Below, piece after piece: positions 42,352 through 55,841 of a DNA stretch of 64,000 bases. The notes below the pieces were generated by a model. The model ran no database searches and had not been told where the DNA came from. It worked only from the letters and a program-made list of their open reading frames with translations. The DNA lies in the NCBI GenBank assembly GCA_000002435.2, contig CM018790.1. One strand, written 5' to 3'. Both the position numbers and the translations under genes were made by a program. The DNA comes from Giardia intestinalis (lineage: Eukaryota). Numbering within the stretch: the stretch's first letter is position 1; the number at the start of each line of letters is the position of its first letter.

Positions 42352-45300
42352 TCACTGATAAGGTTCATGGCATAAAGGGCAAACACTTAGGTGCGTCTTA
42401 CCCATGGTGGCCAATGAGCGACACATCTGACACAGCACTGTTTTGTCCATTTTGTCCGACTTAATTGGCTGCCCCGTACGGACACAAATGGGTGTTTGCC
42501 AGTGACACTTTTCACACATTCCGCAGTACGGTGGAAGAAGTGTATTGCAGTGACCACAGTTTATCTGATAGTTGTCCTTTCGCTTGCTCGGGACAGATGT
42601 GATATTGTATTCGCTGTATATTAGCACAGACATCTGCTCCAGCTGATCCCGCTCAGACGCCGGGAGCTCTGTGTCTGCTTCGATAAGTTCCAGCAAGTTG
42701 GATGCCAATTCAAAATCACCAAATAACAACGCTGCCTGTGCTGCAATTGGCAGGGCTATGCGGCTTAGGTACTGGATACACGGATCAGCAGAGCTCTGAG
42801 AGTCGTTTGTGCGGTGGTAGTAGTTTGCTGCCTCTATAGCAGGCCAAAGGGCCTGTTCGGGATTGCCTATGTAAAGCATGTACGACGAAAGTACTATGAA
42901 TCTGGTTTGCCTGGCGATGCGCCATATGACAGGGACTGAGCGCAGACGCGACTGGGCGTTCTCGAGCTCATGCTCCAAGGAGCTAGCTTCTTTACCAGTA
43001 TTCTTCGCCTTCACGTCATGGACAGCCTTGGAGTTGTCATCCTCATTAATAAATGTGTCTATCGCAGCATTGGTGGCCTGCTCAGTCAACATGCAATCGG
43101 GCGCTGCAGACGCATGTGCTTGTAGATTCTTTTTTGCTTGCTCTCGCTGCACATAGGTGGCTTCTTTACCAGCTAGGACTATAATGCGACGCAGCTTGCT
43201 AAAAAGGCCCGGTGGCATGGGAAATGTTCTATTGACAAAGATCGTCTGAAGCTCTTTTAATACCAAGTTGATAATCACTGCCGCAATGACCTCCCCCTGT
43301 TTGGTTTTGCGCAGCAACTCTAACGCCCCTTGGTCGTCACCAGCAGCAAGCAACTGCTTTAAGTAGACGGATAGTTCACGATCTATAATGTGTAGAATAT
43401 TGTGCTTTCCGGCTATGGCAGCCGCTATGTCAAACCGTTTGAGCTGCAATGATATGTGGACGGCGCTGTGAGGGTCGTTAACGCGCACAAGAGCTTCAGA
43501 CGCACCCTCTACGTCTCCGAGCCTCGCCAGCATGACAGCCACCTTGGCAATGCAGTTTGCAAATTCATCCACAGGAAGAGAAACCGCTAGCGCCTTAAGC
43601 TCTGCGTATCTTCGTGCAGCAAACAAACTTTCAGCATAAAGATAGGGATCTCCGGACTTCTGAAGAAAGTCACTAGCAATTGCATACTGTTGCTGGCGCA
43701 TGTAGTATAGCCCAATCGACTTGTGCGCTTTTTCGAGAAGCTTGTCGTCTATGAGGAGATTGCCACCTGGAGTGCGGGATAGCTTCGCTGCCCTTATAAT
43801 GGATAGCCACATTTGTAGGTCTGTCTGCGTCTTGACTATCAAGTCAGGACGTCCCAGAACCTGTTTGTATACGTGTTCTGCAGAGCTGAAGTTTCCGATG
43901 AGCATAAGCATTTCAGCACGCCTCTGATCTTGCGACTGCAGCCGTAGGAGCGACTCACAAAAGTTGTATGAGACATAGTCCCCTGCACGAATGTAGAAGT
44001 AGCTTGCTACCTCAAGACGCAAAGTAATTAAGCTGGCCTCCGCCACTATCCGGTAAAGGTGAACGGAGGGATGACTCTTCACGTACTCAACTGCTCCAGC
44101 CAGGTTGATAGATATCTGGCCGTCTTTACTATAGAGAGCCTGGCTGGTTTGTGTACTTGGCTGGCTTGAGTTGCTGGCCGTGACGTCTAGGCCCGAATCA
44201 ACCATATCCCCCACAGGTTGCTGGCCCCGCACGGGTTTGATGGCGATTGTCTTCGGAGCGACTGAGTCGAAGAGAGAGCTGGGGACGCCCGACTTAGAGT
44301 CACTTGTTAGTGATATCATGTTCTTGTTGAGGCAGCCTCTGTTCAGTGCAGCATCGACCAGGGGATTAAAGGACTCCGGTGCTTGCTGCTGTCCAAAGAT
44401 AATCTCTTGTAGCTCCCGCAACATCTGCGTTTCTAAGACGTAGTAGGCATGATCGAGAGACGAAATATTGTGTGAGACCTCATCCAGGTATGATGCAATT
44501 ATTGACAGCCCTGAGAACCCTATGATATGGGCAGAGGTTTGAATCGAGTCCTCTCTTGTCTGCGTATCAAGGTGGAAAACAATTACCTTGTACTGAGAAG
44601 AGACGGCGACGAGGTTGGGGTCCTCTGGGCTAAAGACAAGACCCCAGATTCCAATTAGTTCTGGCGAATAAGGTGGAATCGTAGACACACCTCCTGATCT
44701 GGCCTGAGCAGAGTCCTGAAGAAGCTCTCCTGAGCTCACATTGACATTTTTGAGAACGCTATTCTTAATGACGTATGGGGCGCTTTCTGTCTCCACAACA
44801 GAGTCCTGTCCAAAGCCCAGCGCAGCTGCAGTATCCGCATCTGTGTCCAATAGTGTAAGATGGGCCTGAGCCTGTGGTGGTTTAGGAGCTGGTTGTTGTT
44901 TTTGTTGCTGTTGCTCTGCGGGATTGTGATGGGCATAAAGAAACTCTGAATAGTATGACTGAGTGTAGTAAAAAACAAGGGATCCATCTTCGTGAAGACA
45001 TGCCAATACCGTTCCGTTGCAATTTGTTTGCATGTATTCCTGGTTGGGCTTTATGGTCATTGTTTCTAAAAGCGTAAGAGAAGGGAGGGAGTATCGTTGG
45101 ACTCTCTCATCCTGACGAGCGACGAAGAGGGCCACATCACAGCAGGCAACTCCCACTATCGGATTGTTGACCGTTAGTCGAGCAACTGTCAGCTCACGGT
45201 CTTGTGCTAACGGGTAAGAATCAGCATGCCATTCATAGACGTACGACACGTTTTCAGCATCAACCAAGCCTATCGCTTCATTGGCAAGACCCCGTATATC

Positions 45301-46974
45301 GACTACAGAAATACGACTGGAGCTGGCGCAAACAAGATAGTTCCCAGACCCTGCAGTGTAAAACGGGACGTAGGGGAGATCTATCGAGAAGATCGGGGCA
45401 CATACACTTGTATAAAAGCAGATATGCGTGTGATGTTTCCGCGTGCCACTGGTGTTCGTTTTGAGAGTTAGAATCGCAATGTAGCTCTTGCATCCTACAA
45501 CTGCGATCATCCGTGCCGGCCATCGCTGATAAGGAGCCTGCAAACCGGGCTTCCAGAAGAGTACACACTCGTTACACCGTGCACGATCCAGGATACGCTC
45601 CTCAAAACTAGAGATCGCCGAGCTAGGTGCCTCTTCTGCTGTCTTCTTGCTGAACAAGGCGCCTACATTCATTGGGGGCCGCTGAGTATCGTCTACAAAG
45701 CTTGCTGTGCTTAGAATGGTTGAGGTATAGTTGCTCATAGTAAATGCCATAGTCCCGTCATTCATAAGATAGTGATTGTAGGACGGACGCACCGTGGCGA
45801 TGTATATATTCTTGCCCGCTGCTAACACTAGACGGAGTCCCGTAGAGTCCCAAGAGGAGGAGGTAGCCACTCTTTCTGGCAATCTTAGCCGTGAAATAGT
45901 GGCCAGATCTGCAGTTCTATAGACTACAACAATTGCGGTGTGCTTAGTACTATCTCCAGAGACACCCTGGTTACCTCTAAGCTGATGCAAACCGAAGTTA
46001 GAGTCAGAAGATTGCACAGAACCTGTAATACAGAGCATGTGACTTCCTGGAGACAACTGGACATTAACTGGTATAATCTCGGTTGAAACAGAAGATAGGA
46101 GCTCCCCTGTTAGTACAGAGTAGACGCAGAGCATCCCATTTGAAGTAACGGCGATCAGTGTCATGGAGTCCCCGGAGAAGGAGTTGATCTTAATTTGCGG
46201 CATAGAAGAGCCATTGCATGCAGGATCGCGTGATGGACTCAGAGCCGTGAGCTGAGCAGACTCTGACGAGTGCCCCCAGCAACCATGAACGAAGTGGTTA
46301 TCGCTATTTGTTGCCAGCAATGGAGAGACGCTCCAGACCTCCTCTCCACTGAAATTATAGCAGCAAATAGCGTTTCCCCACGCCAATATAAACACTTCGA
46401 TGGCGTTACTAGCAATTAGCCCAAACTTGGGGGCAGAGCCCTTGTTGATGGTGCCATTGTAAATCCTGTGCCCTGAAGCAGTACCGAGCATCACCAGACC
46501 ATTAACGTAGACCATCAGAATGCGGCTAGCATCCGGGGACCAAGTTGTTGTTACAACTGCTGCTCGATTTGAGTCATTGACCAGATTCCGCACCCACTTC
46601 CCCGTGTCTGTAGAGGAGATAAACACGAGCCCTCGGTTATCGCTTGTTGCTAGTTTTGTTTCTTTCTCATTCCACGCGATGCTTGTTATAAGTGCGTTAT
46701 CGTGAAGGCTGAGCTTCTTATCCATGAGAATCCTTACGTTGCGAGTAGACGTGCGCAGATCAGAGATATTATAGCCCTGCTCCGATAACGAATTGAAGTC
46801 TAGAAGCAGGATGCGAATAGACCCCGTCTGCCCTCCAGCAGCTATATAGTTCTCAGTCTTGTTCCAGGCAACCAGAACGACTTCCTCGCCTGTGTCAGTG
46901 AACTCTAAACACTTTAGAATGAAGGCGGTGGAGGGCATTAGCGCTGGTAATTTGCAAGAGAAATTAAAAAACAT
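42352..46974 (-). CDS. WD40 beta-propeller / TPR alpha-solenoid / C-terminal Cys-His zinc-finger protein, IFT-A-like (IFT140/IFT122 family candidate; HOPS/CORVET-like architecture not excluded)
   Basis: N-terminal WD-like repeats (VVLVAWNKTENYIAAGGQTGSIRIL...ITSIAWNEKETKLATSDNRGLVFIS). Central TPR-like region. C-terminus CGHCNTLLPPYCGMCEKCH...CQMCRSL...VCPLCHEPYQ. There is an internal polyQ/Pro insert (EQQQQKQQPAPKPPQAQ). Confidence 0.55.
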   Translation of the reverse strand: MFFNFSCKLPALMPSTAFILKCLEFTDTGEEVVLVAWNKTENYIAAGGQTGSIRILLLDFNSLSEQGYNISDLRTSTRNVRILMDKKLSLHDNALITSIAWNEKETKLATSDNRGLVFISSTDTGKWVRNLVNDSNRAAVVTTTWSPDASRILMVYVNGLVMLGTASGHRIYNGTINKGSAPKFGLIASNAIEVFILAWGNAICCYNFSGEEVWSVSPLLATNSDNHFVHGCWGHSSESAQLTALSPSRDPACNGSSMPQIKINSFSGDSMTLIAVTSNGMLCVYSVLTGELLSSVSTEIIPVNVQLSPGSHMLCITGSVQSSDSNFGLHQLRGNQGVSGDSTKHTAIVVVYRTADLATISRLRLPERVATSSSWDSTGLRLVLAAGKNIYIATVRPSYNHYLMNDGTMAFTMSNYTSTILSTASFVDDTQRPPMNVGALFSKKTAEEAPSSAISSFEERILDRARCNECVLFWKPGLQAPYQRWPARMIAVVGCKSYIAILTLKTNTSGTRKHHTHICFYTSVCAPIFSIDLPYVPFYTAGSGNYLVCASSSRISVVDIRGLANEAIGLVDAENVSYVYEWHADSYPLAQDRELTVARLTVNNPIVGVACCDVALFVARQDERVQRYSLPSLTLLETMTIKPNQEYMQTNCNGTVLACLHEDGSLVFYYTQSYYSEFLYAHHNPAEQQQQKQQPAPKPPQAQAHLTLLDTDADTAAALGFGQDSVVETESAPYVIKNSVLKNVNVSSGELLQDSAQARSGGVSTIPPYSPELIGIWGLVFSPEDPNLVAVSSQYKVIVFHLDTQTREDSIQTSAHIIGFSGLSIIASYLDEVSHNISSLDHAYYVLETQMLRELQEIIFGQQQAPESFNPLVDAALNRGCLNKNMISLTSDSKSGVPSSLFDSVAPKTIAIKPVRGQQPVGDMVDSGLDVTASNSSQPSTQTSQALYSKDGQISINLAGAVEYVKSHPSVHLYRIVAEASLITLRLEVASYFYIRAGDYVSYNFCESLLRLQSQDQRRAEMLMLIGNFSSAEHVYKQVLGRPDLIVKTQTDLQMWLSIIRAAKLSRTPGGNLLIDDKLLEKAHKSIGLYYMRQQQYAIASDFLQKSGDPYLYAESLFAARRYAELKALAVSLPVDEFANCIAKVAVMLARLGDVEGASEALVRVNDPHSAVHISLQLKRFDIAAAIAGKHNILHIIDRELSVYLKQLLAAGDDQGALELLRKTKQGEVIAAVIINLVLKELQTIFVNRTFPMPPGLFSKLRRIIVLAGKEATYVQREQAKKNLQAHASAAPDCMLTEQATNAAIDTFINEDDNSKAVHDVKAKNTGKEASSLEHELENAQSRLRSVPVIWRIARQTRFIVLSSYMLYIGNPEQALWPAIEAANYYHRTNDSQSSADPCIQYLSRIALPIAAQAALLFGDFELASNLLELIEADTELPASERDQLEQMSVLIYSEYNITSVPSKRKDNYQINCGHCNTLLPPYCGMCEKCHWQTPICVRTGQPIKSDKMDKTVLCQMCRSLATMGKTHLSVCPLCHEPYQ

Positions 46975-47065
46975 GAAAAGAAATCAGCTCACCAGAATTC
47001 AATCTATCCTAAAATTGTGCACTTCTTACAATTAGAATAATATAATAAATAATAGATTTAATCAG

Positions 47066-48931
47066 TCATACCCTATTAATTCGTTCATCTTCCCCTTCGC
47101 TCACAGGAAGAAAGATTGCAGAGGCGCTACAGAGATCGTCTTCGATCTCTCCATCCTCCTCACTGGGGTCAAACTGGGGCGGTAGGAGCTCTGTGGGAAC
47201 TCCCCGGGCAACAAGCTCGTCGATAACAAGGCGAGGTCCAGAGTAAGCACAGACATCCTGGGGAGTCACAGAGCCATAGTATTCGTTGCCAGCGTCTCCC
47301 ATATATGAAGTAATGGACCCTGCTTCTGAATACTCCTCGGAAGCGCTAAGAGCTGCATCGGTGTTCGACAACAACCGATGATGTCTGTGGGTTTCACGGC
47401 CCGCAAGGATCTGATGCATATTGCGATCGTGTAGGATGTTTGCTTGCGAGATCATGCTAGAATTGGACGAGTCCACCACAAGTGATGGCGTCACCATAGA
47501 CGGATAACCCTGCTCTATCTCCTCATCAGTAGTGCTTACTAAGCTTGCAACAGATGTAGAGGTTATTGCACGAAGTTTGGTAGAAGCCGGTGTCTCTGTG
47601 CTGCCATCAGTGCCCTTAACGGATGGAACTGACATAGTGCCTCGTGACAGGTAGTCTGTCAGTAGCAACGTTTTAGAACAAGGATGCTCGTTCTCCCTTT
47701 CTTTCACAGCGCTTGGAGCCTGGTCTGTCGGCCACTCGACTTGGGGCATTATAGGTGTGCGTCTGCCGTTACTGACTGGAATGTCATTTTTGTTGTGCTG
47801 ATTGTTTTTGTCACGAGCTGTGTGGGACTCTTGGTTCGAGCCATACGTAGAGAGAGAAACCCTGCTAGTGAAGATGTGAGTGATTTGTTGCAGCGTTTGC
47901 TTTCCTGTTTGTGTGCTGCCCCCAATGGCTGAGAATTGTGGCTCATGTACCATACTTGCTATTCGCCGGTGCATTATAGCGCCATCCCGGAGGGTGGGGT
48001 GCTTTATAGTGTGTGTAGCCGACCCTAGACTCGTGTACCCCTGGTCATAGAGAGTACAGTAGTGTATGCGGAACCTCTTGAGAAAGTCCCAAACATCGAC
48101 ATAAGACCAGTACAGTATGGGGCACACCCTCATGAACTGCGGCCACGAGGGAGAGCAGTGGGAAAAGATGGTTGTCTTCCCATTAGGGTCTGTAGACCGG
48201 ACGCCCATGAAGACCGCGTCTGAGTGATAGTCGTTATAGAAGTTGACAATGCAGTTCTTGAAGCTCGTGCCCAAATACACCACTGTCCCTAGGTTCTGTT
48301 CGTGATCTATGAGACACATAAACTTCATCACCTGCTTTATCTGAACCTCATTGTGAACGTAGAAGAAAATAAACCGCGAACGAAGCAATTCATGGGGGGT
48401 GATGCTTTCAAAATCTGAGTTTTCCTCTATGACCGCCTGAAGACAGGCTGCACGGATTAGGTACAGAACAACGGTATTGTCCTTTCCTCCGTTGAAGCTA
48501 AATGCCAGTCGTCGGTATTGGCGCATGGCCGCACGAATGACCACAAGGGCTTGGTATATCTTCTGCGCAAACTGAAGCTCTAGGGAATCATTAACCAGAG
48601 GTGTCTCAGTTGATTCAGTGGAGGATGGATTGAGGCGCACGTCATTATTATCAGCCATATGTCTAATTTCATTAGGAGGCCGCACAGGGTTAAGGTCACT
48701 CGTTTGGCGTGGGTTGTTGCTGGCACTAATGGTGGCAGATTGTGGCGATTCTTGGTCACCAGTGGGGCCATTAGTGAAATTGGCCGCCTTCTGGGCAAAT
48801 TCAAGGATACTCTTACACTCGGGGAACCACTCGGAACCCTTGGGAATAACGGAGTCTGGGTTCAAAAGGATAGCCTCTTCCTTCCGCGGGGGTGAAAAGA
48901 GAAACTCGGGATAGGTATGATGAGTGCTCAT
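47066..48931 (-). CDS. FAD synthase (FMN adenylyltransferase, PAPS-reductase-like fold) with a long Ser/Thr-rich C-terminal extension
   Basis: PP-loop FSFNGGKDNTVVLYL. GVRSTDPNGK, WPQFMRVCPILYWSYVDVWDFL, YCTLYDQGYTSLGS match yeast FAD1 (SFSYNGGKDC, IGIRHTDPFGE, HWDLTNIWSFL, CGLYGKGFTSIGG). Confidence 0.75.
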   Translation of the reverse strand: MSTHHTYPEFLFSPPRKEEAILLNPDSVIPKGSEWFPECKSILEFAQKAANFTNGPTGDQESPQSATISASNNPRQTSDLNPVRPPNEIRHMADNNDVRLNPSSTESTETPLVNDSLELQFAQKIYQALVVIRAAMRQYRRLAFSFNGGKDNTVVLYLIRAACLQAVIEENSDFESITPHELLRSRFIFFYVHNEVQIKQVMKFMCLIDHEQNLGTVVYLGTSFKNCIVNFYNDYHSDAVFMGVRSTDPNGKTTIFSHCSPSWPQFMRVCPILYWSYVDVWDFLKRFRIHYCTLYDQGYTSLGSATHTIKHPTLRDGAIMHRRIASMVHEPQFSAIGGSTQTGKQTLQQITHIFTSRVSLSTYGSNQESHTARDKNNQHNKNDIPVSNGRRTPIMPQVEWPTDQAPSAVKERENEHPCSKTLLLTDYLSRGTMSVPSVKGTDGSTETPASTKLRAITSTSVASLVSTTDEEIEQGYPSMVTPSLVVDSSNSSMISQANILHDRNMHQILAGRETHRHHRLLSNTDAALSASEEYSEAGSITSYMGDAGNEYYGSVTPQDVCAYSGPRLVIDELVARGVPTELLPPQFDPSEEDGEIEDDLCSASAIFLPVSEGEDERINRV

Positions 48932-48981
48932 AAAATTAAGTTAAAACAAAGCACGGGACGTGCGGAAGCAACCGTCTGCTA

Positions 48982-49542
48982 ATGGACGTGAACACGCAGA
49001 CATGTGCCCACGCAATCCTCTTCTCGGATCTTGATGACCTGTTTTGGGAAACTGCCACCGAGAACGAGGCTATTTGTCAGACAGACCCTTTTCAGGTTGC
49101 GACCTGGACGGATACACACCTGGATACGGGTGCCAACACACCAGATCTATCTGCTAGTGCTCCACAGCTGCACCGCAACACCCGTAGTACGCCCCTGGAG
49201 CTCAGGTTGAAGGTCGTCCAGCTCCGAGAGCAGCAGTCCCTACCGTTCTCCACGATTTCCTCAATGTTGGCAATGCCTCTGACAACCGTGAAGTCCATAT
49301 GGCAGACGTACCGGCGGGAGGGGCGTGTGAAGCCACTCCAGGGAGGGGGCTGGAACCAGCGGCCAGACCGCATGACAGTCGACGCCCGGGTTTCGGGGCC
49401 TGTCCAAGCCCGGATTCTTGAGCTCCGCGCCGCGCACGCCTCGCTCCGGGCCATCTCGGACAGCGTCTGGCGCGAGTACGGGGTCCGGGTCTCGCGGTCG
49501 GCGTGCGGGGCGTTGCTCCAACGGCTGAAGACCCGTGAGTAA
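48982..49542 (+). mobile_element. truncated Tc1/mariner(IS630)-type transposase: N-terminal bipartite HTH (paired-like) DNA-binding domain only, no DDE domain
   Basis: 186-aa ORF. Residues about 68-186 (LELRLKVVQLREQQSLPFSTISSMLAMPLTTVKSIWQTYRREGRV...GGGWNQRPDRMTVDARVSGPVQARILELRAAHASLRAISDSVWREYGVRVSRSACGALLQRLK) align position-by-position with the Sleeping Beauty/Tc1 N-terminus (ISQDLRKKIVDLHKSGSSLGAISKRLKVPRSSVQTIVRKYKHHGTT...SGRRRYLSPRDERTLVRKVQINPRTTAKDLVKMLEETGTKVSISTVKRVLYRHNL). It ends abruptly after the DBD. Local GC is 65-70% against about 49% background. Confidence 0.5.
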
Positions 49543-51763
49543 ACACACGGAAAATAGAGATAGGAAATCTATCGCCTGGTGTGGGCGACGGGCGCGCTCG
49601 CGTGGTGTAGTTGGTTATCACATTCGTTTCACGTACGAAGGGTCTAGGGTTCGAATCCCTACGCGAGCATCTTCCGTTCACTCTCTCCACGAGCCGGAAC
49701 CCGACGAGGGATCGGGGCACGAACCTGTCCCGGTGCCACGGGGCCGGCGGGAGCTGGATGTTGTAGCGCGGGACGAACGCCGGCCCAGGGGGTTCCTGGT
49801 CCGGCACGGGGGTGTCGGCCTCGTTGGGGGCGCTGAGAAGGCTAATGCTGCTGTAGCTCTCCGCGCGGGCCAACGTCGTGTCGTGCTCGTCCCTATCATC
49901 GAAGAGCGTGGACCAGGGAATCTCGTCCGAGTTAGACGGGCTCGATCCTGCGGGAGCCGCAGACTTGGTCGCAGAAGACGCATCAGGCTTCACTTTCTTC
50001 AGAGAGGGCTCGCAATCTGTGCAGGCCTGCTCGCCTGCGGCAGTGTTAATAGGGTTGTAAGGCTTGTTGAATCGGAGGCTCGGCGGCAAAATGCAGCGCC
50101 TCTTTACCTGCAAAACCCTGGTTAACAGCCTGCTTAAGCAGCAATGCGTCGGTGTGGTGCTTTTGATGTAAGGGTTCAGAAGGGTGCGATATGCTGTGAT
50201 GCTAACGACACTTGTGTAAGAGGTGCCCAAGAGCCCTAACCAGGAAAGGTATGTTCGGGCATCGATACAGGCCGTTTCCTTGATCGGGTAGCCAGACGGT
50301 GCCGCACCCAGCAGCAAATTATCACTAGCCCTGCACGACGCCGTCAGTGTGGCGCTGACCTCTTGAACCGCGGGGTCACTTGCGTCGCAGATGACCTTCA
50401 CGCAGCCAGAAAGCTTTCCAGAGATGTAGGAGAGAGTCGCTAAGAAATCACCGGAAGAGCCCCCTATCAATATGGCATGCTGCAAAATAAAGCTGCACTT
50501 GTAGTTACGGGTGAAGTACATGGGATCGCGCTTGACGAAAAAGAGGTGGTAGAATTTGACATCGCTTCCGTCAGCGGCGTTGAGGCCAGACACCATATTT
50601 ATATTTCTTCTGTATGCATGAGAGAGCTCTGGCGTTCGCCGTATCTGGTCTGTCATGTAAGTGCAGTAGTCGTTTCGACAACCCTCAAAGAGGCTTGAAA
50701 AGGCCTCGGCAAACTCTCCGGTAAGATTGTGCAGGAAGCAGATGGCGTCGATGAGGCTCCAGCAGTAGTAGATTACGTCCCAGATTGGCGTTTTACAGCT
50801 GAAGAGGGAGCATTCATAAAAAGGTTTGTCTATGCCGGTGAAGGCAGGAAAATCGAAGGCATGAGCGGCAGCGGGCGGAGCAGACGCGCTCGTCCTCTCC
50901 TCGCCGGGCCGTTGCTGTATCGTGGGAAGCTTCGGCTCACTCCGTGTAAGGACCTCTGACCTGAGGCCATCTGATGGAGTGCCCGTCGGCTGTAAACGCG
51001 CTACTGCAAGCAGAGTGCTTCTGTTTTGCCTTCCAGAAAGCCTCTCTGAGGGGTCGGATTGCGCCACTACCCTGCTTTCCATAGTGAAGTTGTCCTTCAA
51101 GAATACGGAGCTTGCCGCAACAGGGGCTGTGGTAAGGCGAGGCAGCATCTCTGTAGATGCGGCATCAGTGGCATGCTTTGCTGGCCCGCATTTTGGCCTC
51201 TTCACCTTAGACCCGCTGGGGTCTTGTACAGGTCTGCTCTGGGAGACGACCGACTGCGTCTCTGTCTTGATGCTTCGAGTCTGTGCTTTTTGCGCCGATG
51301 CATGAGCCAGTCGCTCAGCAGAGTCCTTCGTTGAGGAGGATGTCTGCTCTCGAACCATTGGGGGAGAACTTGAGTGATTGGAAAGAGGCCTCGGAAGGCT
51401 TTGGGAGGAACATGCCCCTCCCTTGTGTCCACAGTATGTCTTTTCCGCGCCTTTTATGGTCTGGTCGACCACAAATAGGTCCTTTTGGGAAAGAAAATAC
51501 TCTGTCGCAGCAATGAGGAGGGGCAAAGCCTTGCTAAGCTTCCTGCCGTAGAGGGGGATGACGACCCGTCTGAATAGCAAATGCATAACATCCCCCAGGT
51601 CTGCGTCCGGATCTATACGGGGAATTTGAGGCCTGGGCGCAGGCTTCGCGCCAGGAGGCTCAGAAACAGCCTCCTTGGGTTCTTCAAAGGTTGTCTTGGT
51701 GATATGCTTGGCCTCAAGGTGTCTGATGAGGTTGAAGAAAGAGTTGATGGCATATATTAGCAT
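49202..51763 (-). CDS. hypothetical protein; 5' two-thirds coding-like, 3' about 250 codons (49202-49960) doubtful
   Basis: ATG at 51763. The N-terminal and central parts (FDFPAFTGIDKPFYEC...GTSYTSVVSITAYRTLLNPY...) have normal composition. The C-terminal part is R/P/G-rich, runs antisense through the tRNA (the ...RDSNPRPF... segment is the reverse translation of the tRNA T-arm) and through the transposase-like ORF. Confidence 0.4.
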   Translation of the reverse strand: MLIYAINSFFNLIRHLEAKHITKTTFEEPKEAVSEPPGAKPAPRPQIPRIDPDADLGDVMHLLFRRVVIPLYGRKLSKALPLLIAATEYFLSQKDLFVVDQTIKGAEKTYCGHKGGACSSQSLPRPLSNHSSSPPMVREQTSSSTKDSAERLAHASAQKAQTRSIKTETQSVVSQSRPVQDPSGSKVKRPKCGPAKHATDAASTEMLPRLTTAPVAASSVFLKDNFTMESRVVAQSDPSERLSGRQNRSTLLAVARLQPTGTPSDGLRSEVLTRSEPKLPTIQQRPGEERTSASAPPAAAHAFDFPAFTGIDKPFYECSLFSCKTPIWDVIYYCWSLIDAICFLHNLTGEFAEAFSSLFEGCRNDYCTYMTDQIRRTPELSHAYRRNINMVSGLNAADGSDVKFYHLFFVKRDPMYFTRNYKCSFILQHAILIGGSSGDFLATLSYISGKLSGCVKVICDASDPAVQEVSATLTASCRASDNLLLGAAPSGYPIKETACIDARTYLSWLGLLGTSYTSVVSITAYRTLLNPYIKSTTPTHCCLSRLLTRVLQVKRRCILPPSLRFNKPYNPINTAAGEQACTDCEPSLKKVKPDASSATKSAAPAGSSPSNSDEIPWSTLFDDRDEHDTTLARAESYSSISLLSAPNEADTPVPDQEPPGPAFVPRYNIQLPPAPWHRDRFVPRSLVGFRLVERVNGRCSRRDSNPRPFVRETNVITNYTTRARPSPTPGDRFPISIFRVFTHGSSAVGATPRTPTARPGPRTRARRCPRWPGARRARRGAQESGLGQAPKPGRRLSCGLAAGSSPLPGVASHAPPAGTSAIWTSRLSEALPTLRKSWRTVGTAALGAGRPST
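49596..49669 (+). tRNA. tRNA-Val (anticodon CAC)
   Basis: Manual cloverleaf: acceptor GCTCGCG/CGCGAGC (7 bp), D-arm GTGT-AGTTGGTTA-TCAC, anticodon stem TTCGT/ACGAA with loop TTCACGT (U33, anticodon CAC, G37), variable loop GGGTC, T-arm TAGGG-TTCGAAT-CCCTA, discriminator A. A-box TGGTGTAGTTGG and B-box GGTTCGAATCC are both present. Confidence 0.85.
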
Positions 51764-52553
51764 ATGAATTTTTTAGAAGGCGGATCAAAAATGTTCTCAC
51801 CACAACACATGCATGACGATAATCATTTTTATATTTTCATTTTTTAAGCAATGCAGATTGATACTGTAGATTACTGTATACCATTGAAGGTTGCTGTATG
51901 CTCTTCCATAATTGTTTAGACTGGATTATAGATGCGTTAAACGCACTAGGCAAGTAGTAGGCTCCCTTCGACTCTCAAGTAGGGGTCATTAGCAATCAGC
52001 GTCCACCCGTGATTCCTGCCCACTGGCCCCCCAAGTGTAACCACTGGCCCTGAAGCACGGATCTGCGGCCTGGCACGTTTCGGTTATCTGTGAGACGGGT
52101 TTTCGTCTGTCTATGAGCTGGGAATAATAAAGCTGTCAACGGCACGTGCTCTCAGATTAGAAGACACGCGATTGGGATTAGGAGGCATCGGCACCGGAGC
52201 CCCTGTGCAGAGAGCACAACTAAGGTGTCCACATCTCACATGACTGAGCAAACAAACTAGTAGGAACGGTGGATGGAACTAGAGCCTTTTCCTGATTGAC
52301 AGACACAAAAGGGGAGGCTGATCGATAAAGGCGTTTATGTCTGGATGTGATAGACCCATAGAGCTCAGGTTCTAGGCTGCATGCTTTGCTGTGATGTCCT
52401 TTTGCTGTGATTGCCTGCCTCGGGCCCGATCTGAGGCATCGATCCGCTAATTTGTACTAAATACACATTATTAATATTTTGTGAGAAATTACTCTTTGCT
52501 TCAAAATTAACAAAAAACACGACAAGAACCAGACATCCGTTAACAAAAAGCAA

Positions 52554-54803
52554 ATGGTTTTCGTGCTTCTCCTGGCTGCCTTCGGGGCGCTCCTTTCGGC
52601 TCCGTCGCACTCCCAGCAGCTGCACTGCCTCTACGAGTTCTACGACGCTCTCCAGGGGGATTCGTGGTGGGTCAGAAACAACTGGCCGGCTTCCACCCAG
52701 CGAACAGAGGATGAGGACTATTGCCAGTTCTACGGGATTACGTGCGATTCGTCCGGCAATGTTGAGGGGATCACGATGCCTGGGAACAATCTCTTCGGAG
52801 TCCTTCCCACGTGCATCATCAACTTCCCCTTGAAGGTGCTCTCCGTCCCGCACAATAGGTTGCGAGAGTCCATCCCATATATCAAGAACGGCATCGAGGT
52901 GCTGAACCTGGAGGATACCGAAATCATGGTTCTGGCGACTGACATGCAAGCCTGGACGACTGTCCGTGAGATGAACCTTCACAAGGGCCACTTCGGGCGG
53001 ATGCTCATTCCCAACGACTTCATCTTCTACAGCAATATGGAGAACCTCGACTTCTCTGACGCCGGGATAGGCTTCTACGCCTGGGGCCTCGACTTCACGA
53101 CCATCAGCACTCCAAAGCTCAGCCTCGCCGGCATGGATCTCTCAGAATACATCATGAGCAACGTCGCAAAAGACCAGATGAAGGCCTTGGATGTCTCCGG
53201 GACCTGGGTAAAGTACCGTATAAAGGACTTTAATAAGGACTTCCTGGACGTCTATAACATGGTTCACATGCCCTTCCAGTACACACTCATGTCCTCCATC
53301 ATTAACTTCTCAACGCTTATCGATATGTCAAGCAAGGACGTTCGCTCCATCAACATCCGCGGGACTAACACCACCGGTGTGTTTGACCCGGAGAAGTGGA
53401 TGAACTTTGTCGTGAACCAAACCAGGGATGACTTCTACATGCTCGACATGTCCTACAATGGTCTCAGTGGCTACGGGCCGACCCTGCAGCAGTACGAGAC
53501 GGTTCTCGCACTCAAGCCGAGTGCTCGCTATCTCTCGCTCGAGCTCAACTCGTTCTTCTGCGATTACAAGGAGAGCAGGATGTTCGGGTGCAGTCGCCTC
53601 CGTATTTACGACGCGTATTACCTTGCCAGCTATGAGCGCCTCATGGTCCTTGTTGACTATTCCCACTTCGCATATGCACCCCTCAGGGATCTCCAGTACC
53701 ACATGAGTGTTATCTTCCGCAATATCACGAAGTACAAGACAGAGACAGACCCGATAAAGCGTATCCAGAACATAGAGACATATAATTACATTCACGCCCG
53801 CAGCAGTGCCGGCCTTGGCTACTTCTGTGTTGACGTCACGATACCGTACGACGAGGCAGTGGCTCTTGGGCTCCTCGAGATGAACAAGACATTTGTTGGC
53901 ATTCTCTACGATGGCCATCTGATCAGCGGGCGCTCCTTCAATCTCGTTCATGAAGTAGGCCTCGACAAGGACAGTTCTGCGGTGGACGCCTCTGAGAAAC
54001 CCGGCCGCCGCTGCACAATCCCCTCTGGGTGCACTGTCGACGAAGACTATGACGAGACCAAGGACCCGGTTCCTGTCCCTGCTCTTTCGCATAAGCTGTC
54101 TACGCACGACGAGGACCATAGGAAGGATGTCGCCAAGAGGCTTATTTCTGGCGCCAAGAAGGCGGAGATGAATCTCACGTGGACATACCTTGCTCACGAG
54201 TCTGAGCAGAAGATCGCTGTTGACACCTTTGCGATGTCCAGGTGCGGAGACTTCTATGAGCGCCTTAACACAGTCATCCTGCCCCTTTTCGATAAGTATC
54301 CTGAGATCACTGAAATAGCGCAGTTCAAACACTTCAGTATGTCCGAGTACAATCCTAGGTACTCGAATGGCGGTCTTTCCAAGCACGGGTATGAGGAGGT
54401 TAAGGGTGACATTCAGCTCCTCTGCGCCCAGGAGTACGTCGATACACACACATTCTACGACATCCTCAAGTGCCTCTCGACGGAGGGCGGAAAGACCGCT
54501 CTTCCGCGCAACTTCGAGCACTGCCTGCATCAAGTTGCCTCTGGCAAGGAGCTTCTCAACAAGATAATATACTGCTCCAATGGTGAGTTCGGCAGGGCGC
54601 TTCTTGAGTATTCTTATAAACAGAAGCACAAGATGTCTGTTGCCAACTCTCCCGACATCTTTATTGGCAAGAAGATGGTGTGCCACGGGACCATGGCTTA
54701 CTGTGTGACCACCGACGCGGACTCTTTTGCCCAGCAGATTTGTCAGGCCTTTATCCGCGAGAAGAACTACACACCCGACATCTGTAATAGTATCTTGAGC
54801 TGA
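52554..54803 (+). CDS. secreted leucine-rich-repeat protein (signal peptide, LRRNT-like Cys motif and LRRs) with a Cys-containing C-terminal domain
   Basis: MVFVLLLAAFGALLSAPSHS signal. WxxNWPxxxxxxDYCQFYGITCDSSGNVEGITMPGNNLFGVLP is a plant-type LRRNT/LRR signature, followed by LxxLxLxxN repeats. ATG at 52554 after taacaaaaagcaa. Confidence 0.65.
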   Translation: MVFVLLLAAFGALLSAPSHSQQLHCLYEFYDALQGDSWWVRNNWPASTQRTEDEDYCQFYGITCDSSGNVEGITMPGNNLFGVLPTCIINFPLKVLSVPHNRLRESIPYIKNGIEVLNLEDTEIMVLATDMQAWTTVREMNLHKGHFGRMLIPNDFIFYSNMENLDFSDAGIGFYAWGLDFTTISTPKLSLAGMDLSEYIMSNVAKDQMKALDVSGTWVKYRIKDFNKDFLDVYNMVHMPFQYTLMSSIINFSTLIDMSSKDVRSINIRGTNTTGVFDPEKWMNFVVNQTRDDFYMLDMSYNGLSGYGPTLQQYETVLALKPSARYLSLELNSFFCDYKESRMFGCSRLRIYDAYYLASYERLMVLVDYSHFAYAPLRDLQYHMSVIFRNITKYKTETDPIKRIQNIETYNYIHARSSAGLGYFCVDVTIPYDEAVALGLLEMNKTFVGILYDGHLISGRSFNLVHEVGLDKDSSAVDASEKPGRRCTIPSGCTVDEDYDETKDPVPVPALSHKLSTHDEDHRKDVAKRLISGAKKAEMNLTWTYLAHESEQKIAVDTFAMSRCGDFYERLNTVILPLFDKYPEITEIAQFKHFSMSEYNPRYSNGGLSKHGYEEVKGDIQLLCAQEYVDTHTFYDILKCLSTEGGKTALPRNFEHCLHQVASGKELLNKIIYCSNGEFGRALLEYSYKQKHKMSVANSPDIFIGKKMVCHGTMAYCVTTDADSFAQQICQAFIREKNYTPDICNSILS

Positions 54804-54806
54804 TTT

Positions 54807-55841
54807 ATGAGTAAAAGATCCGTTTTAATTATCCTGTGCTATGAACAGATTGAGGAATTAAAACTGATGAACGCCGTCCCCAGGGAACTGCGATCTCCAG
54901 TCACAGAGGCGATGCTCCTCCACAAGATAATTAGCAAGAAGCGCTTTTCTTTCCTCTACTCCGATAGCTACGAGACTGAGATAGAATTTCGTTTGGGGGT
55001 CTTTGAGGACTTTTTGAAGCAACGGCTTCGACCCCACAATCAACGCCTTGTAAGCGAGGCCCTTGTTCACCGGATTGTCCGCATGCAGGACTATGATATC
55101 ATGGAGGTCGCTGCTCGCCGAGAACCGCGAAATCCAATTTCTGACCCCAAGCAACTCCCTGAAAATAAGATTTACCAACGATTCAACGGAAACATCGGCG
55201 AGGAGACGTACCTGCGACTCATGAAGGCTCTTGTAGCCGCTCATGTTGCAGGAGATTCATCTTCATTTCTTGGAGCGAAGATACTCGGCATCGAGACAAA
55301 ACAGTTCCGGCAGGACTTGTATGACTATAAGGTGGGCGACGTGGTCACAGGTAACTATCGCGTGCGGACAGACGTTCTGACCGGCAAGCTTCTAGAGGAA
55401 GGATGCAAAATACAATTCGATGTGAGCAATATCCACTTTCCGCATACGTATATGTTTGATGTCCGCTTTGCAATAGCCAAAGAGTTCAGCATTGCGGCCG
55501 AAAAGAAGAATGAAATAAAGGAGTCGTCAAAGCCCAACACCTCAATAAGGAAGCGCACCTCCTTTCGGACAGAGGACTTCGTCATCGATCTCACATACGT
55601 GGAGCGCTATAACACTGTTGGGGTTCTCGAGGAAAAGCTCTACCAAGCGGAGCTGGAGGTCCTTCCCAAGACCTTTGGATCTGAGAGCTCAAAGCCTCCG
55701 GGCAGGATATTCGACGAACTCTTGGCAAACGTGAAGGCACTGATAGCTTGTGCTTCTGGTCTAACGACTCTCTATCCTCTTCCGGACAATTGGAAAGAGA
55801 TTATCGATCAATCCAATGCCCACCTCTCAAGTTCTGTGTAG
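54807..55841 (+). CDS. triphosphate tunnel metalloenzyme (TTM) fold protein, candidate Cet1-like RNA 5'-triphosphatase
   Basis: N-terminal YETEIEFRLGVF (ExExE/K beta1 motif, compare Cet1 IEIEMKFG) and C-terminal LYQAELEVLP (compare Cet1 EVELEL). Size is 344 aa. It starts 3 nt after the previous stop, in the same frame. Confidence 0.45.
   Translation: MSKRSVLIILCYEQIEELKLMNAVPRELRSPVTEAMLLHKIISKKRFSFLYSDSYETEIEFRLGVFEDFLKQRLRPHNQRLVSEALVHRIVRMQDYDIMEVAARREPRNPISDPKQLPENKIYQRFNGNIGEETYLRLMKALVAAHVAGDSSSFLGAKILGIETKQFRQDLYDYKVGDVVTGNYRVRTDVLTGKLLEEGCKIQFDVSNIHFPHTYMFDVRFAIAKEFSIAAEKKNEIKESSKPNTSIRKRTSFRTEDFVIDLTYVERYNTVGVLEEKLYQAELEVLPKTFGSESSKPPGRIFDELLANVKALIACASGLTTLYPLPDNWKEIIDQSNAHLSSSV

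What the first reader, a model, noticed from the sequence alone, without database searches (positions are those of the whole stretch)
49180..49960. High-GC island (about 70% GC) carrying a truncated Tc1/mariner-type transposase DNA-binding domain fused next to a tRNA-Val gene
Three 60-nt samples inside this segment give 68-73% GC, against about 48% elsewhere in the window. Inside it, a 186-aa ORF encodes a bipartite HTH that aligns residue-for-residue with the paired-like DNA-binding domain of Tc1/Sleeping Beauty transposases, then stops, with no DDE catalytic domain anywhere nearby. A canonical tRNA-Val(CAC) begins 53 nt downstream, and the GC-rich sequence continues past the tRNA. tRNA genes are classic integration sites. 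This looks like a decayed DNA transposon, possibly of foreign origin, or a domesticated HTH gene. DNA transposons are, to my knowledge, essentially unreported in this kind of genome. It also disrupts or extends the 3' end of the overlapping host ORF.
Basis: partly seen in the sequence, partly recalled or inferred. Interest (0 to 1): 0.8.

Follow-up and report, generated by a model that had tools for sequence, protein, structure and literature searches.

The report
Conserved Giardia paired-like DNA-binding gene
The flagged segment is not a dead or foreign transposon: it is an ordinary, expressed, single-copy Giardia gene (GL50803_3786) for a small DNA-binding protein whose binding domain resembles that of Tc1/Sleeping Beauty transposases and Pax proteins, and it lies in a local GC-rich patch around a tRNA-Val gene.

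Summary
The observations hold. GC peaks at 0.66-0.74, the only stretch of the 64 kb above mean + 3 SD. A 186-aa ORF lies at 48982-49542. tRNA-Val(CAC) starts 53 nt downstream, and no DDE domain is nearby.

The window is Giardia intestinalis WB, and the ORF is the annotated hypothetical protein GL50803_3786.
- It is syntenic, head-to-head with FAD synthetase, in four G. intestinalis lineages and in G. muris.
- It is under strong purifying selection (dN/dS 0.06-0.18).
- It is single-copy, has no terminal inverted repeats, and ends in a Giardia dual stop/poly(A) signal.
- Published long-read data show polyadenylated transcripts.

The protein has an acidic N-terminus (charge -11) and a basic C-terminal domain of two three-helix units. 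Profile searches link that domain to Sleeping Beauty/Tc1-type modules, and fold searches to Pax paired domains, with moderate statistics.

So the "decayed or foreign transposon at a tRNA" reading is rejected. "Domesticated or ancient paired-like HTH gene" is the reading that survives.

The GC island is mostly third-codon-position GC (0.8-0.9) in the converging 3' ends of two genes flanking the tRNA. It varies by lineage, so it arose in place.

The last 155 codons of the overlapping 853-aa minus-strand ORF are unselected read-through.

The parts
48932..48946 (.). AT-rich element AAAATTAAGTTAAAA in the 50-nt divergent intergenic region between FAD synthetase (ATG at 48931, minus strand) and GL50803_3786 (ATG at 48982). 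Probably a shared bidirectional initiator/promoter.
   Evidence: Read from the sequence. The block CATAAAATTAAGTTAAAA is invariant in all four G. intestinalis lineages, while the rest of the spacer varies. The head-to-head arrangement is kept in G. muris, where the spacer is 12 nt. The promoter role is inferred.
48982..49542 (+). Coding sequence of GL50803_3786 (XP_001707183.1, A8BGG7; 186 aa, annotated 'hypothetical protein'), stop codon included.
   Evidence: ORF; exact-sequence identification. dN/dS is 0.18, 0.06 and 0.11 in this frame against three lineages, and above 1 in the other + frames. The G. muris orthologue GMRT_15178 matches at E = 6.5e-22. Published long-read data give 32 + 19 polyadenylated ONT reads.
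48982..49176 (+). Acidic N-terminal region (aa 1-65). Predicted helix at about aa 10-32, otherwise low confidence. Possibly an activation or interaction region.
   Evidence: Net charge is -11 with no K or R. This is conserved in all orthologues, G. muris included. dN/dS is 0.07-0.15. AF2 pLDDT is about 30. No Pfam hit. The function is inferred.
49192..49317 (+). First three-helix HTH (aa 71-112), PAI-like.
   Evidence: AF2 places helices at 71-84, 89-96 and 100-112 with pLDDT about 80. Pfam HTH_SB matches aa 72-116 at E 9e-5. The best PDB sequence hit is the Sleeping Beauty PAI subdomain, E 0.011.
49318..49368 (+). Linker (aa 113-129) with the invariant motif GGGW-x-x-RP-x-R. It aligns to the RSGRPRK linker of SB/Tc1-type modules.
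   Evidence: Invariant columns G121, G122, G123, W124, P128 and R130, G. muris included. hhalign alignment.
49369..49536 (+). Second three-helix HTH (aa 130-185), RED-like.
   Evidence: AF2 places helices at 130-150, 155-166 and 172-185 with pLDDT 75-87. Pfam HTH_32 matches aa 102-179 at E 6.7e-4. The G. muris orthologue matches HTH_32 at E 8.5e-7.
49538..49543 (+). AGTAAA poly(A) signal overlapping the TAA stop (49540-49542): a dual stop/poly(A) signal.
   Evidence: Read from the sequence. AGTAAA is conserved in all lineages. NAG-UAA dual use is described for about 15% of Giardia genes (PMC9014877).
49596..49669 (+). tRNA-Val(CAC) gene.
   Evidence: ARAGORN and Rfam RF00005 at 63 bits. The sequence is identical in assemblage E and 96-97% identical in two further lineages.
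49670..51763 (-). Selected coding part (698 codons) of the neighbouring minus-strand gene 'X' (GLP15_140 in isolate P15). It converges on the tRNA and GL50803_3786.
   Evidence: In its frame dN/dS is 0.12-0.21 at 49684-49975 and 0.08 at 49990-50338. Orthologues of 789 and 807 aa exist. A weak homologue lies next to tRNA-Val in G. muris. No Pfam domain.
49202..49669 (-). Unselected read-through of the 853-aa ORF, antisense to the tRNA and to the 3' part of GL50803_3786. Probably not a functional coding extension.
   Evidence: dN/dS is 1.8-4.1 in this frame. The stop position differs between lineages.
49676..49682 (-). Sense-strand AGTGAAC, a Giardia poly(A) signal consensus, at the end of the selected part of gene X.
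   Evidence: It is conserved in three lineages. Sense AGTRAA is otherwise nearly absent inside ORFs of this window. Actual use as a signal is inferred.
49241..49991 (.). GC island. It is mainly a third-codon-position GC rise in the two converging gene ends. The tRNA and the spacer before it are not GC-rich.
   Evidence: GC3 is 0.78-0.90 in the last ~120 codons of GL50803_3786 and 0.85-0.93 in the last ~80 selected codons of X. Other ORFs in the window have GC3 0.44-0.74.

Best explanation
The segment holds a bona fide, vertically inherited Giardia gene, GL50803_3786. It encodes a 186-aa protein with an acidic N-terminal region and a basic C-terminal bipartite helix-turn-helix domain of the paired-like (PAI + RED) type. 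That type is found in Tc1/Sleeping Beauty/IS630 transposases and in Pax proteins.

The protein most likely acts as a sequence-specific nuclear DNA-binding protein, a small transcription regulator. Each three-helix unit would bind one DNA half-site, and the acidic N-terminus would recruit partners. Published work reports a C-terminal paired-like domain of this sort in Giardia Pax1 and Pax2.

The gene is transcribed divergently from FAD synthetase, from a short AT-rich spacer. It ends in a dual stop/poly(A) signal about 50 nt before a tRNA-Val gene.

Its DNA-binding domain is either an ancient domestication of an IS630-Tc1-mariner transposase DNA-binding domain or a descendant of the same ancestral domain pool. 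In either case the catalytic part was already absent in the common ancestor of G. muris and G. intestinalis.

The GC island is not an insertion. It is a local rise in synonymous-site GC, added to an Arg/Gly/Ala-rich composition, in the converging 3' ends of this gene and the minus-strand gene X on either side of the tRNA.

Shown: gene identity, conservation, selection, expression, domain architecture, and the make-up of the island. Inferred: DNA binding, a regulatory role, transposase ancestry, and the cause of the GC3 rise.
For: Identity. The sequence matches GL50803_003786 / XP_001707183.1 exactly, and the neighbour is FAD synthetase XP_001707184.1.

Orthologues. They are 75-87% identical in three other G. 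intestinalis lineages and 33% identical in G. muris. All lie head-to-head with the PAPS_reduct/FAD synthetase gene.

Selection. dN/dS is 0.06-0.18 in the ORF frame, in both the N-terminal and HTH parts, and above 1 in the other + frames.

Copy number and ends. There is no second copy in the window and no paralogue in 1.84 or 5.8 billion proteins. There are no TIRs.

Expression. 32 + 19 polyadenylated ONT reads with a median tail of 56.6 nt. The stop lies inside a conserved AGTAAA.

Domain.
- Pfam gives HTH_SB E 9e-5 and HTH_32 E 6.7e-4; the G. muris orthologue gives HTH_32 E 8.5e-7.
- 15 of the 18 non-Giardia profile hits (E 3e-17 to 8e-4) are proteins made of HTH_SB + HTH_32/HTH_Tnp_Tc3_2 modules.
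- Single modules align to profile positions ~50-180 at 20-31 bits.
- hhalign gives 97.6% probability over 98 columns.
- AF2 predicts two three-helix units.
- The top Foldseek PDB hits for both models are Pax6, Pax5 and Prd paired domains: E 0.01-0.07, 120-127 columns, 22-24% identity.

Charge. -11 for aa 1-62 and +13 for aa 63-186, conserved in G. muris.

GC island. GC3 is 0.84 in assemblages A and E, 0.76 in the L004 lineage and 0.48 in L003, while GC1 and GC2 stay constant. GC3 rises in both converging genes.
Against: - No single-sequence Pfam hit reaches its gathering score.
- The whole-database significance of the profile hits comes from summing several modules of 20-31 bits each.
- AF2 confidence is modest (mean pLDDT 51-57). 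The relative placement of the two units is undefined.
- DNA binding, nuclear localisation and targets are untested.
- No link to Giardia Pax1 or Pax2 was detected. No 302-aa protein (the length of Pax2) is among the 20 profile hits.
- Transposase ancestry cannot be told apart from shared ancient ancestry with these data.
- A parsimony count of recent A/E-branch changes shows more S>W than W>S inside the island (44 vs 15). So there is no evidence for an ongoing GC-biased process. That test is also biased when the outgroup is this distant.
Confidence: 0.8

Rival explanations
1. A decayed, truncated Tc1/mariner DNA transposon, possibly acquired horizontally, that integrated next to a tRNA gene and brought its own GC-rich DNA.
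For: The only recognisable similarity is to the transposase-type bipartite HTH. GC is far above the window mean. A tRNA gene is adjacent.
Against: - dN/dS is 0.06-0.18 over the whole ORF, so it is not evolving neutrally.
- The gene is single-copy.
- It has no TIRs.
- There is no DDE domain and no room for one.
- It sits at the same syntenic locus in G. muris, where the tRNA is 3.8 kb away.
- The GC excess is largely at synonymous sites, varies by lineage, and also covers the neighbouring host gene.
- From general knowledge, Tc1/mariner elements target TA dinucleotides, not tRNA genes.
Confidence: 0.03
2. A lineage-specific HTH protein with no specific relationship to transposase or paired domains. 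On this reading it is a generic pair of three-helix bundles (sigma-70 region 4-like or homeodomain-like), and the SB/Tc1 similarity only reflects the common HTH fold.
Against: - The similarity spans both HTH units and the linker in one collinear alignment, positions ~50-180, to single SB/Tc1-type modules.
- 15 of the 18 non-Giardia hits in 1.84 billion proteins carry HTH_SB above the gathering score.
- Both AF2 models rank full paired domains first in Foldseek.
- Sigma region 4 matches cover only the first HTH.
Confidence: 0.12
3. The GC island reflects a functional or mutational property of the tRNA locus. One option is a GC-biased gene-conversion or recombination hotspot where converging Pol II transcripts meet a Pol III gene. 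The alternative is selection on the codon usage of the two genes.
For: The GC3 rise is roughly symmetric about the tRNA and crosses gene boundaries. It is absent where the arrangement differs: in the L003 lineage the downstream sequence is unrelated, and in G. muris the tRNA lies elsewhere.
Against: - Only one tRNA locus could be examined.
- Recent substitutions on the A/E branches are not W>S biased.
- The tRNA and the spacer are themselves not GC-rich.
- Part of the GC excess comes from amino-acid composition: GC1 is 0.69 and GC2 is 0.55.
Confidence: 0.3

Closest known systems
DNA-binding domain of Tc1/Sleeping Beauty (IS630-Tc1-mariner) transposases: PAI + RED, Pfam HTH_SB / HTH_Tnp_Tc3_2 / HTH_32
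   Same: Both have two three-helix HTH units joined by a basic Gly/Arg/Pro linker. The best Pfam and PDB sequence matches are to it. Profile hits and hhalign cover both units.
   Different: The Giardia gene has no DDE catalytic domain, no TIRs and only one copy. It is fixed and under selection. Its scores fall below the Pfam gathering thresholds. The domain is C-terminal, after an acidic region, rather than N-terminal.
Pax paired domain (Pfam PAX; PDB 6pax, 1k78, 1pdn)
   Same: Same bipartite PAI/RED architecture. These are the top Foldseek hits for both models, over 120-127 columns at 22-24% identity.
   Different: The PAX score is 14.4 bits against a gathering score of 22. No N-terminal beta-hairpin is predicted. 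There is no homeodomain or octapeptide. The organism is not a metazoan.
Giardia Pax-like proteins Pax1 (ORF 32686) and Pax2 (ORF 16640, 302 aa) (PMC3280250)
   Same: Small Giardia proteins with a paired-like domain near the C terminus. They are reported to be nuclear, to bind AT-rich initiators and to activate cwp genes. They are the likeliest functional analogues.
   Different: This is a different gene (ORF 3786). No 302-aa protein (Pax2's length) appears among the 20 profile hits, so no relationship was detected. The published Pax1 and Pax2 have proline-rich N-terminal regions, whereas this protein has an acidic one. No experiments exist for ORF 3786: a full-text search for its identifiers found nothing.
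Domesticated transposase-derived DNA-binding genes (general class; the origin of the paired domain from Tc1-like transposases is from general knowledge)
   Same: Single-copy, syntenic across species, under purifying selection, without TIRs or a catalytic domain, and expressed.
   Different: No related active or fossil transposon is known in Giardia. A review lists only three retroposons for it. So the donor element is hypothetical.
Dual-use NAG-UAA stop/poly(A) signals of Giardia (PMC9014877)
   Same: The gene ends GAG-TAA-AC, which reads AGUAAA across the stop codon.
   Different: Nothing differs. This is an ordinary Giardia gene end.

Membership tests
Tc1/mariner (IS630-Tc1-mariner) DNA transposon, intact or decayed | Bipartite N-terminal HTH DNA-binding domain | tested here: met
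   Pfam HTH_SB E 9e-5 and HTH_32 E 6.7e-4, both below gathering. Profile hits to HTH_SB + Tc3_2 modules. hhalign 97.6%.
Tc1/mariner (IS630-Tc1-mariner) DNA transposon, intact or decayed | DDE/DDD catalytic domain or a recognisable remnant | tested here: not met
   No DDE family in the ORF, in gene X or in the other neighbours. The flanks are occupied by the FAD synthetase start, the tRNA and selected coding sequence.
Tc1/mariner (IS630-Tc1-mariner) DNA transposon, intact or decayed | Terminal inverted repeats flanking the element | tested here: not met
   Within 48400-50600 there are only four short inverted pairs of 13-16 nt, and none brackets the ORF.
Tc1/mariner (IS630-Tc1-mariner) DNA transposon, intact or decayed | Multiple or polymorphic copies; neutral decay of dead copies | tested here: not met
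   Single copy in the window. Only orthologues in the protein collections. Same locus in five Giardia lineages. dN/dS 0.06-0.18.
Pax / paired-domain transcription factors (Pfam PF00292) | PAX profile match at or above the gathering score (22 bits) | tested here: not met
   14.4 bits, E 0.037, aa 66-128.
Pax / paired-domain transcription factors (Pfam PF00292) | PAI + RED fold of two three-helix units | tested here: inconclusive
Pfam HTH_SB (PF25787) | Score at or above the gathering threshold (43 bits) | tested here: not met
   22.6 bits for WB and 23.9 bits for G. muris.
Domesticated transposase-derived host gene | Orthologous single-copy locus across species, purifying selection, loss of TIRs and catalytic domain, expression | tested here: met
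Domesticated transposase-derived host gene | Phylogenetic nesting of the domain within a transposase clade | not testable with these tools
   This needs a curated set of IS630-Tc1-mariner transposase and Pax domains from many eukaryotes. The similarity here (20-31 bits per module) is too weak for a reliable tree.
Giardia Pax-like transcription factors (Pax1/Pax2) | Nuclear localisation and binding to AT-rich initiator elements | not testable with these tools
   Experimental properties reported for Pax1 and Pax2. There are no data for ORF 3786.

The most novel reading that the evidence does not exclude
GL50803_3786 is a molecular fossil of an IS630-Tc1-mariner transposon. The transposon was active in the ancestor of Giardia, a genus in which no DNA transposon is known today. 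Its DNA-binding domain was recruited, independently of the metazoan Pax event, as a genus-specific transcription regulator.

A second, separate possibility concerns the neighbouring gene X. It may have no genome-encoded stop codon and instead gain UAA by polyadenylation exactly at the boundary of the antisense tRNA-Val gene.
Probability: 0.3. Interest if true: 0.5.

Novelty: new member of a known kind. Interest (0 to 1): 0.3.

Why it matters
Giardia has few recognised sequence-specific transcription factors. Its published 'Pax-like' proteins resemble true paired domains only faintly.

GL50803_3786 is an uncharacterised, expressed, genus-conserved protein with a clearer transposase/paired-type DNA-binding domain. 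That makes it a concrete candidate regulator to tag and knock down.

If the domain derives from a transposase, it would be indirect evidence that DNA transposons once lived in this lineage. It would also be another independent case of a paired-like domain being recruited by a host.

For annotation, the result gives two practical points. The gene should not be masked as a repeat. The 853-aa (WB) and 789-aa (P15) models of the neighbouring gene are probably too long at the 3' end.

Tried and rejected
- Transposon signatures. A search for TIRs and direct repeats and for extra copies by blastn and tblastn found nothing. A weak tblastn hit at 56064-55714 lies in a START-domain ORF and is chance.
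- Remote homology. A second word-indexed search with a profile that included G. muris found only the five Giardia clusters.
- Literature. The Pax1 paper (PMID 20699219) is not held, so Pax1 and Pax2 could not be compared directly. Full-text searches for GL50803_3786 and A8BGG7 found no paper. The UTR-length supplement of PMC9014877 is truncated and does not show this gene.
- GC-biased substitution. Polarising A/E differences with the L004 lineage gave S>W 44 vs W>S 15 in the island and 30 vs 51 outside. This does not support an ongoing GC-biased process, but parsimony with so distant an outgroup is unreliable. I treat it as inconclusive.
- Possible tRNA link. A functional link between the HTH protein and the tRNA gene is rejected, because the two are not adjacent in G. 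muris.


Full report
**1. What is in the sequence**

The window averages 49.2% GC. In 100-nt windows GC reaches 0.66-0.74 at 49300-49550 and again at 49650-49900. In 200-nt windows the maximum is 0.735 (z = 5.0). The span 49241-49991 is the only part of the 64 kb above mean + 3 SD.

A 186-aa ORF lies at 48982-49542 (+). A canonical tRNA-Val(CAC) lies at 49596-49669 (+), exactly 53 nt after the stop (ARAGORN; Rfam 63 bits). An 853-aa ORF on the minus strand (49202-51763) runs antisense through the tRNA and into the 186-aa ORF.

**2. Where the window comes from and what the ORF is**

The ORF is an exact match to hypothetical protein GL50803_003786 (XP_001707183.1, UniProt A8BGG7) of Giardia intestinalis WB clone C6. 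The minus-strand gene at 47066-48931 is FAD synthetase, XP_001707184.1 (Pfam PAPS_reduct).

Orthologues of the ORF:
- GLP15_139 in isolate P15, 87% identical.
- Two further G. intestinalis lineages recovered from public read assemblies, 75-77% identical.
- GMRT_15178 in G. muris, 193 aa, 33% identical, profile E = 6.5e-22.

In every case the gene lies head-to-head with the FAD synthetase/PAPS_reduct gene. The wider neighbourhood is shared with G. muris: IFT121/WDR35, FAD synthetase, the HTH gene, a GILT-like gene and the mRNA triphosphatase.

**3. It is a real, selected and expressed gene**

I aligned the locus from four G. intestinalis lineages and ran Nei-Gojobori counts.
- In the ORF frame dN/dS is 0.18 (against P15), 0.06 and 0.11.
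- In the other two + frames it is 1.4-2.2.
- Both the N-terminal 65 codons and the HTH part are constrained.

Other gene features:
- The start codon and the first eight residues are invariant.
- The AT-rich block AAAATTAAGTTAAAA (48932-48946) in the 50-nt divergent spacer is invariant, while the rest of the spacer varies.
- The stop codon sits inside a conserved AGTAAA (49538-49543). Long-read work showed AGURAA to be the Giardia poly(A) signal and NAG-UAA to serve as a dual stop/poly(A) signal in about 15% of genes (PMC9014877).
- The same study's tail-length table lists GL50803_3786 with 32 and 19 polyadenylated nanopore reads and a median tail of 56.6 nt.

**4. It is not a transposon**

- The region has no terminal inverted repeats or direct repeats that bracket the ORF.
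- There is no second copy in the window at DNA or protein level.
- Searches of 5.8 billion and 1.84 billion proteins found only orthologues, no paralogues.
- No DDE domain occurs in the ORF or in neighbouring ORFs.
- There is no unassigned space for one. FAD synthetase starts 50 nt upstream, and the sequence beyond the tRNA is selected coding DNA of another gene.
- In G. muris the orthologue is equally short and is followed after 30 nt by a converging GILT gene. Its tRNA-Val(CAC) lies 3.8 kb away.

So the short form predates the split of the two species, and adjacency to the tRNA is secondary. A review of protozoan repeats lists only three retroposons for Giardia. This locus does not change that.

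**5. What the protein looks like**

Residues 1-62 carry a net charge of -11 and no Lys or Arg. Residues 63-186 carry +13. The split is conserved in G. muris.

Two AlphaFold2 runs predict a disordered or weakly helical N-terminus and then six helices in two three-helix units: 71-84, 89-96, 100-112 and 130-150, 155-166, 172-185. Helix pLDDT is 75-87. The linker holds the invariant motif GGGW-x-x-RP-x-R.

Sequence evidence:
- Single-sequence Pfam matches are all below gathering scores but point one way: HTH_SB 22.6 bits (E 9e-5), HTH_32 (E 6.7e-4), HTH_23, PAX, HTH_28 and HTH_33. In G. muris, HTH_32 gives E 8.5e-7.
- A profile of the G. intestinalis orthologues found 20 proteins at E <= 1e-3 among 1.84 billion. 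Two are the Giardia clusters. Of the other 18, 15 are fish or oomycete proteins built from repeated HTH_SB + HTH_32/HTH_Tnp_Tc3_2 modules.
- Their database-wide significance comes from summing modules. Each module scores 20-31 bits, but it aligns collinearly to profile positions ~50-180, covering both HTH units and the linker.
- hhalign of the Giardia alignment against 18 such modules gives 97.6% probability over 98 columns at 28% identity. The modules were chosen from the hits themselves, so this is supportive rather than independent evidence.
- The best PDB sequence hit is the Sleeping Beauty PAI subdomain, E 0.011.

Fold evidence:
- Foldseek ranks Pax6, Pax5 and Prd paired domains first for both models: E 0.01-0.07, 120-127 columns.

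I conclude, with moderate confidence, that the C-terminal two thirds is a paired-like (PAI + RED) DNA-binding domain of the transposase/Pax superfamily.

**6. Likely function**

An acidic region followed by a basic bipartite HTH is the layout of a small transcription regulator. Two Giardia 'Pax-like' proteins, Pax1 and Pax2, also carry the paired-like domain near the C terminus. They are reported to be nuclear, to bind AT-rich initiators and to activate cyst-wall genes (PMC3280250).

GL50803_3786 is a different ORF. It showed no detectable relationship to them in the profile search, and its identifiers appear in no searchable full text.

The regulator role is an inference. Whether the domain was domesticated from a transposase or shares older ancestry cannot be decided here.

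**7. The GC island**

The excess GC has two layers.
- Amino-acid composition. The region is rich in Arg, Gly and Ala. GC1 is about 0.69 and GC2 about 0.55, and both are constant across lineages.
- Synonymous sites. For codons 100-186, GC3 is 0.84 in assemblages A and E, 0.76 in the L004 lineage and 0.48 in the L003 lineage.

GC3 also climbs to 0.85-0.93 in the last ~80 selected codons of the converging minus-strand gene. All other long ORFs in the window have GC3 0.44-0.74. The tRNA and the spacer before it are not GC-rich.

The island is absent in two settings:
- Around the G. muris tRNA-Val.
- In the L003 lineage, where the sequence beyond the tRNA is unrelated.

The island therefore arose in place in part of the G. 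intestinalis complex. It is centred on the junction of two converging genes and a Pol III gene.

A recombination or GC-biased conversion hotspot is a reasonable guess. However, a parsimony count of recent A/E changes shows no W>S excess (the test is weak). The cause stays unexplained.

**8. The overlapping minus-strand ORF**

In the 853-aa frame dN/dS is 0.08-0.21 down to the tRNA, but 1.8-4.1 across 49205-49540. The stop lies at a different place in each lineage. Annotated or called lengths are 853, 789 (GLP15_140) and 807 aa. The last 155 codons are thus unselected read-through of stop-poor DNA.

No lineage has an in-frame stop before or within the antisense tRNA. A conserved sense AGTGAAC lies at 49682-49676. 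Sense AGTRAA is otherwise almost absent from ORFs in this window.

The next in-frame U is the complement of tRNA base 49669. It lies 13 nt from the start of the signal, and the usual signal-to-cleavage distance is 13-15 nt. Polyadenylation there would create UAA and a 698-aa product.

This is speculation. Stop codons made by polyadenylation are documented for Blastocystis nuclear genes (PMC4159000). The papers I read do not report it for Giardia.

**9. Verdict**

The headline interpretation, a decayed and possibly foreign DNA transposon at a tRNA integration site, is rejected. The fallback, a domesticated HTH gene, is the reading that survives.

The gene is already annotated as a hypothetical protein, so the finding is a new member of a known kind, not a new kind of element. 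Interest is modest: a candidate Giardia transcription regulator, a possible trace of past transposon activity, an unexplained local GC3 island, and a likely over-extended gene model next door.

Noticed in passing
window 49202-49700, minus strand: Gene X (the 853-aa ORF; GLP15_140 in P15) has no in-frame stop before or inside the antisense tRNA-Val in any of three lineages. Selection ends at the tRNA. A conserved sense AGTGAAC poly(A) signal at 49682-49676 is followed 13 nt later by an in-frame U, so polyadenylation could create a UAA stop and give a 698-aa product. The current 853- and 789-aa models are probably too long.
   Followed up: partly
window 49241-49991; L006 10200-10500: The GC3 rise (0.8-0.93) is roughly symmetric about the tRNA-Val gene and spans the 3' ends of two converging genes. 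It is seen in three G. intestinalis lineages. It is not seen in a fourth, whose downstream sequence differs, or in G. muris. The cause is unknown.
   Followed up: partly
window 42352-55841 versus L006 575-11355: There is a local rearrangement relative to G. muris. G. muris has IFT121(-) FADS(-) HTH(+) GILT(-) X(+) tRNA-Val(+) triPase(+). WB has IFT121(-) FADS(-) HTH(+) tRNA-Val(+) X(-) GILT(+) triPase(+). The 3' end of X abuts the tRNA in both, in sense orientation in G. muris and antisense in WB. A single inversion does not explain this. The tRNA 3' trailer CATCTTC(C/T)G is shared.
   Followed up: partly
L006 9191-10432 (+): An uncalled 413-aa ORF in G. muris is a weak homologue of WB gene X (BLASTP E 4e-6 and 3e-5, collinear). 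Its 3' end overlaps the tRNA-Val gene on the same strand.
   Followed up: partly
window 54803-54807: The GILT-like ORF (52554-54803) and the mRNA triphosphatase ORF (54807-55841) are only 3 nt apart on the same strand. This is an example of the extreme gene packing in this genome.
   Followed up: no
window 49092-49454(-), 49261-49548(-), 49535-50125(+), 49678-49983(-): Several further ORFs of 95-196 aa overlap the island on both strands. They are by-products of stop-poor GC-rich DNA. Substitution patterns support only the GL50803_3786 frame and the gene X frame.
   Followed up: yes
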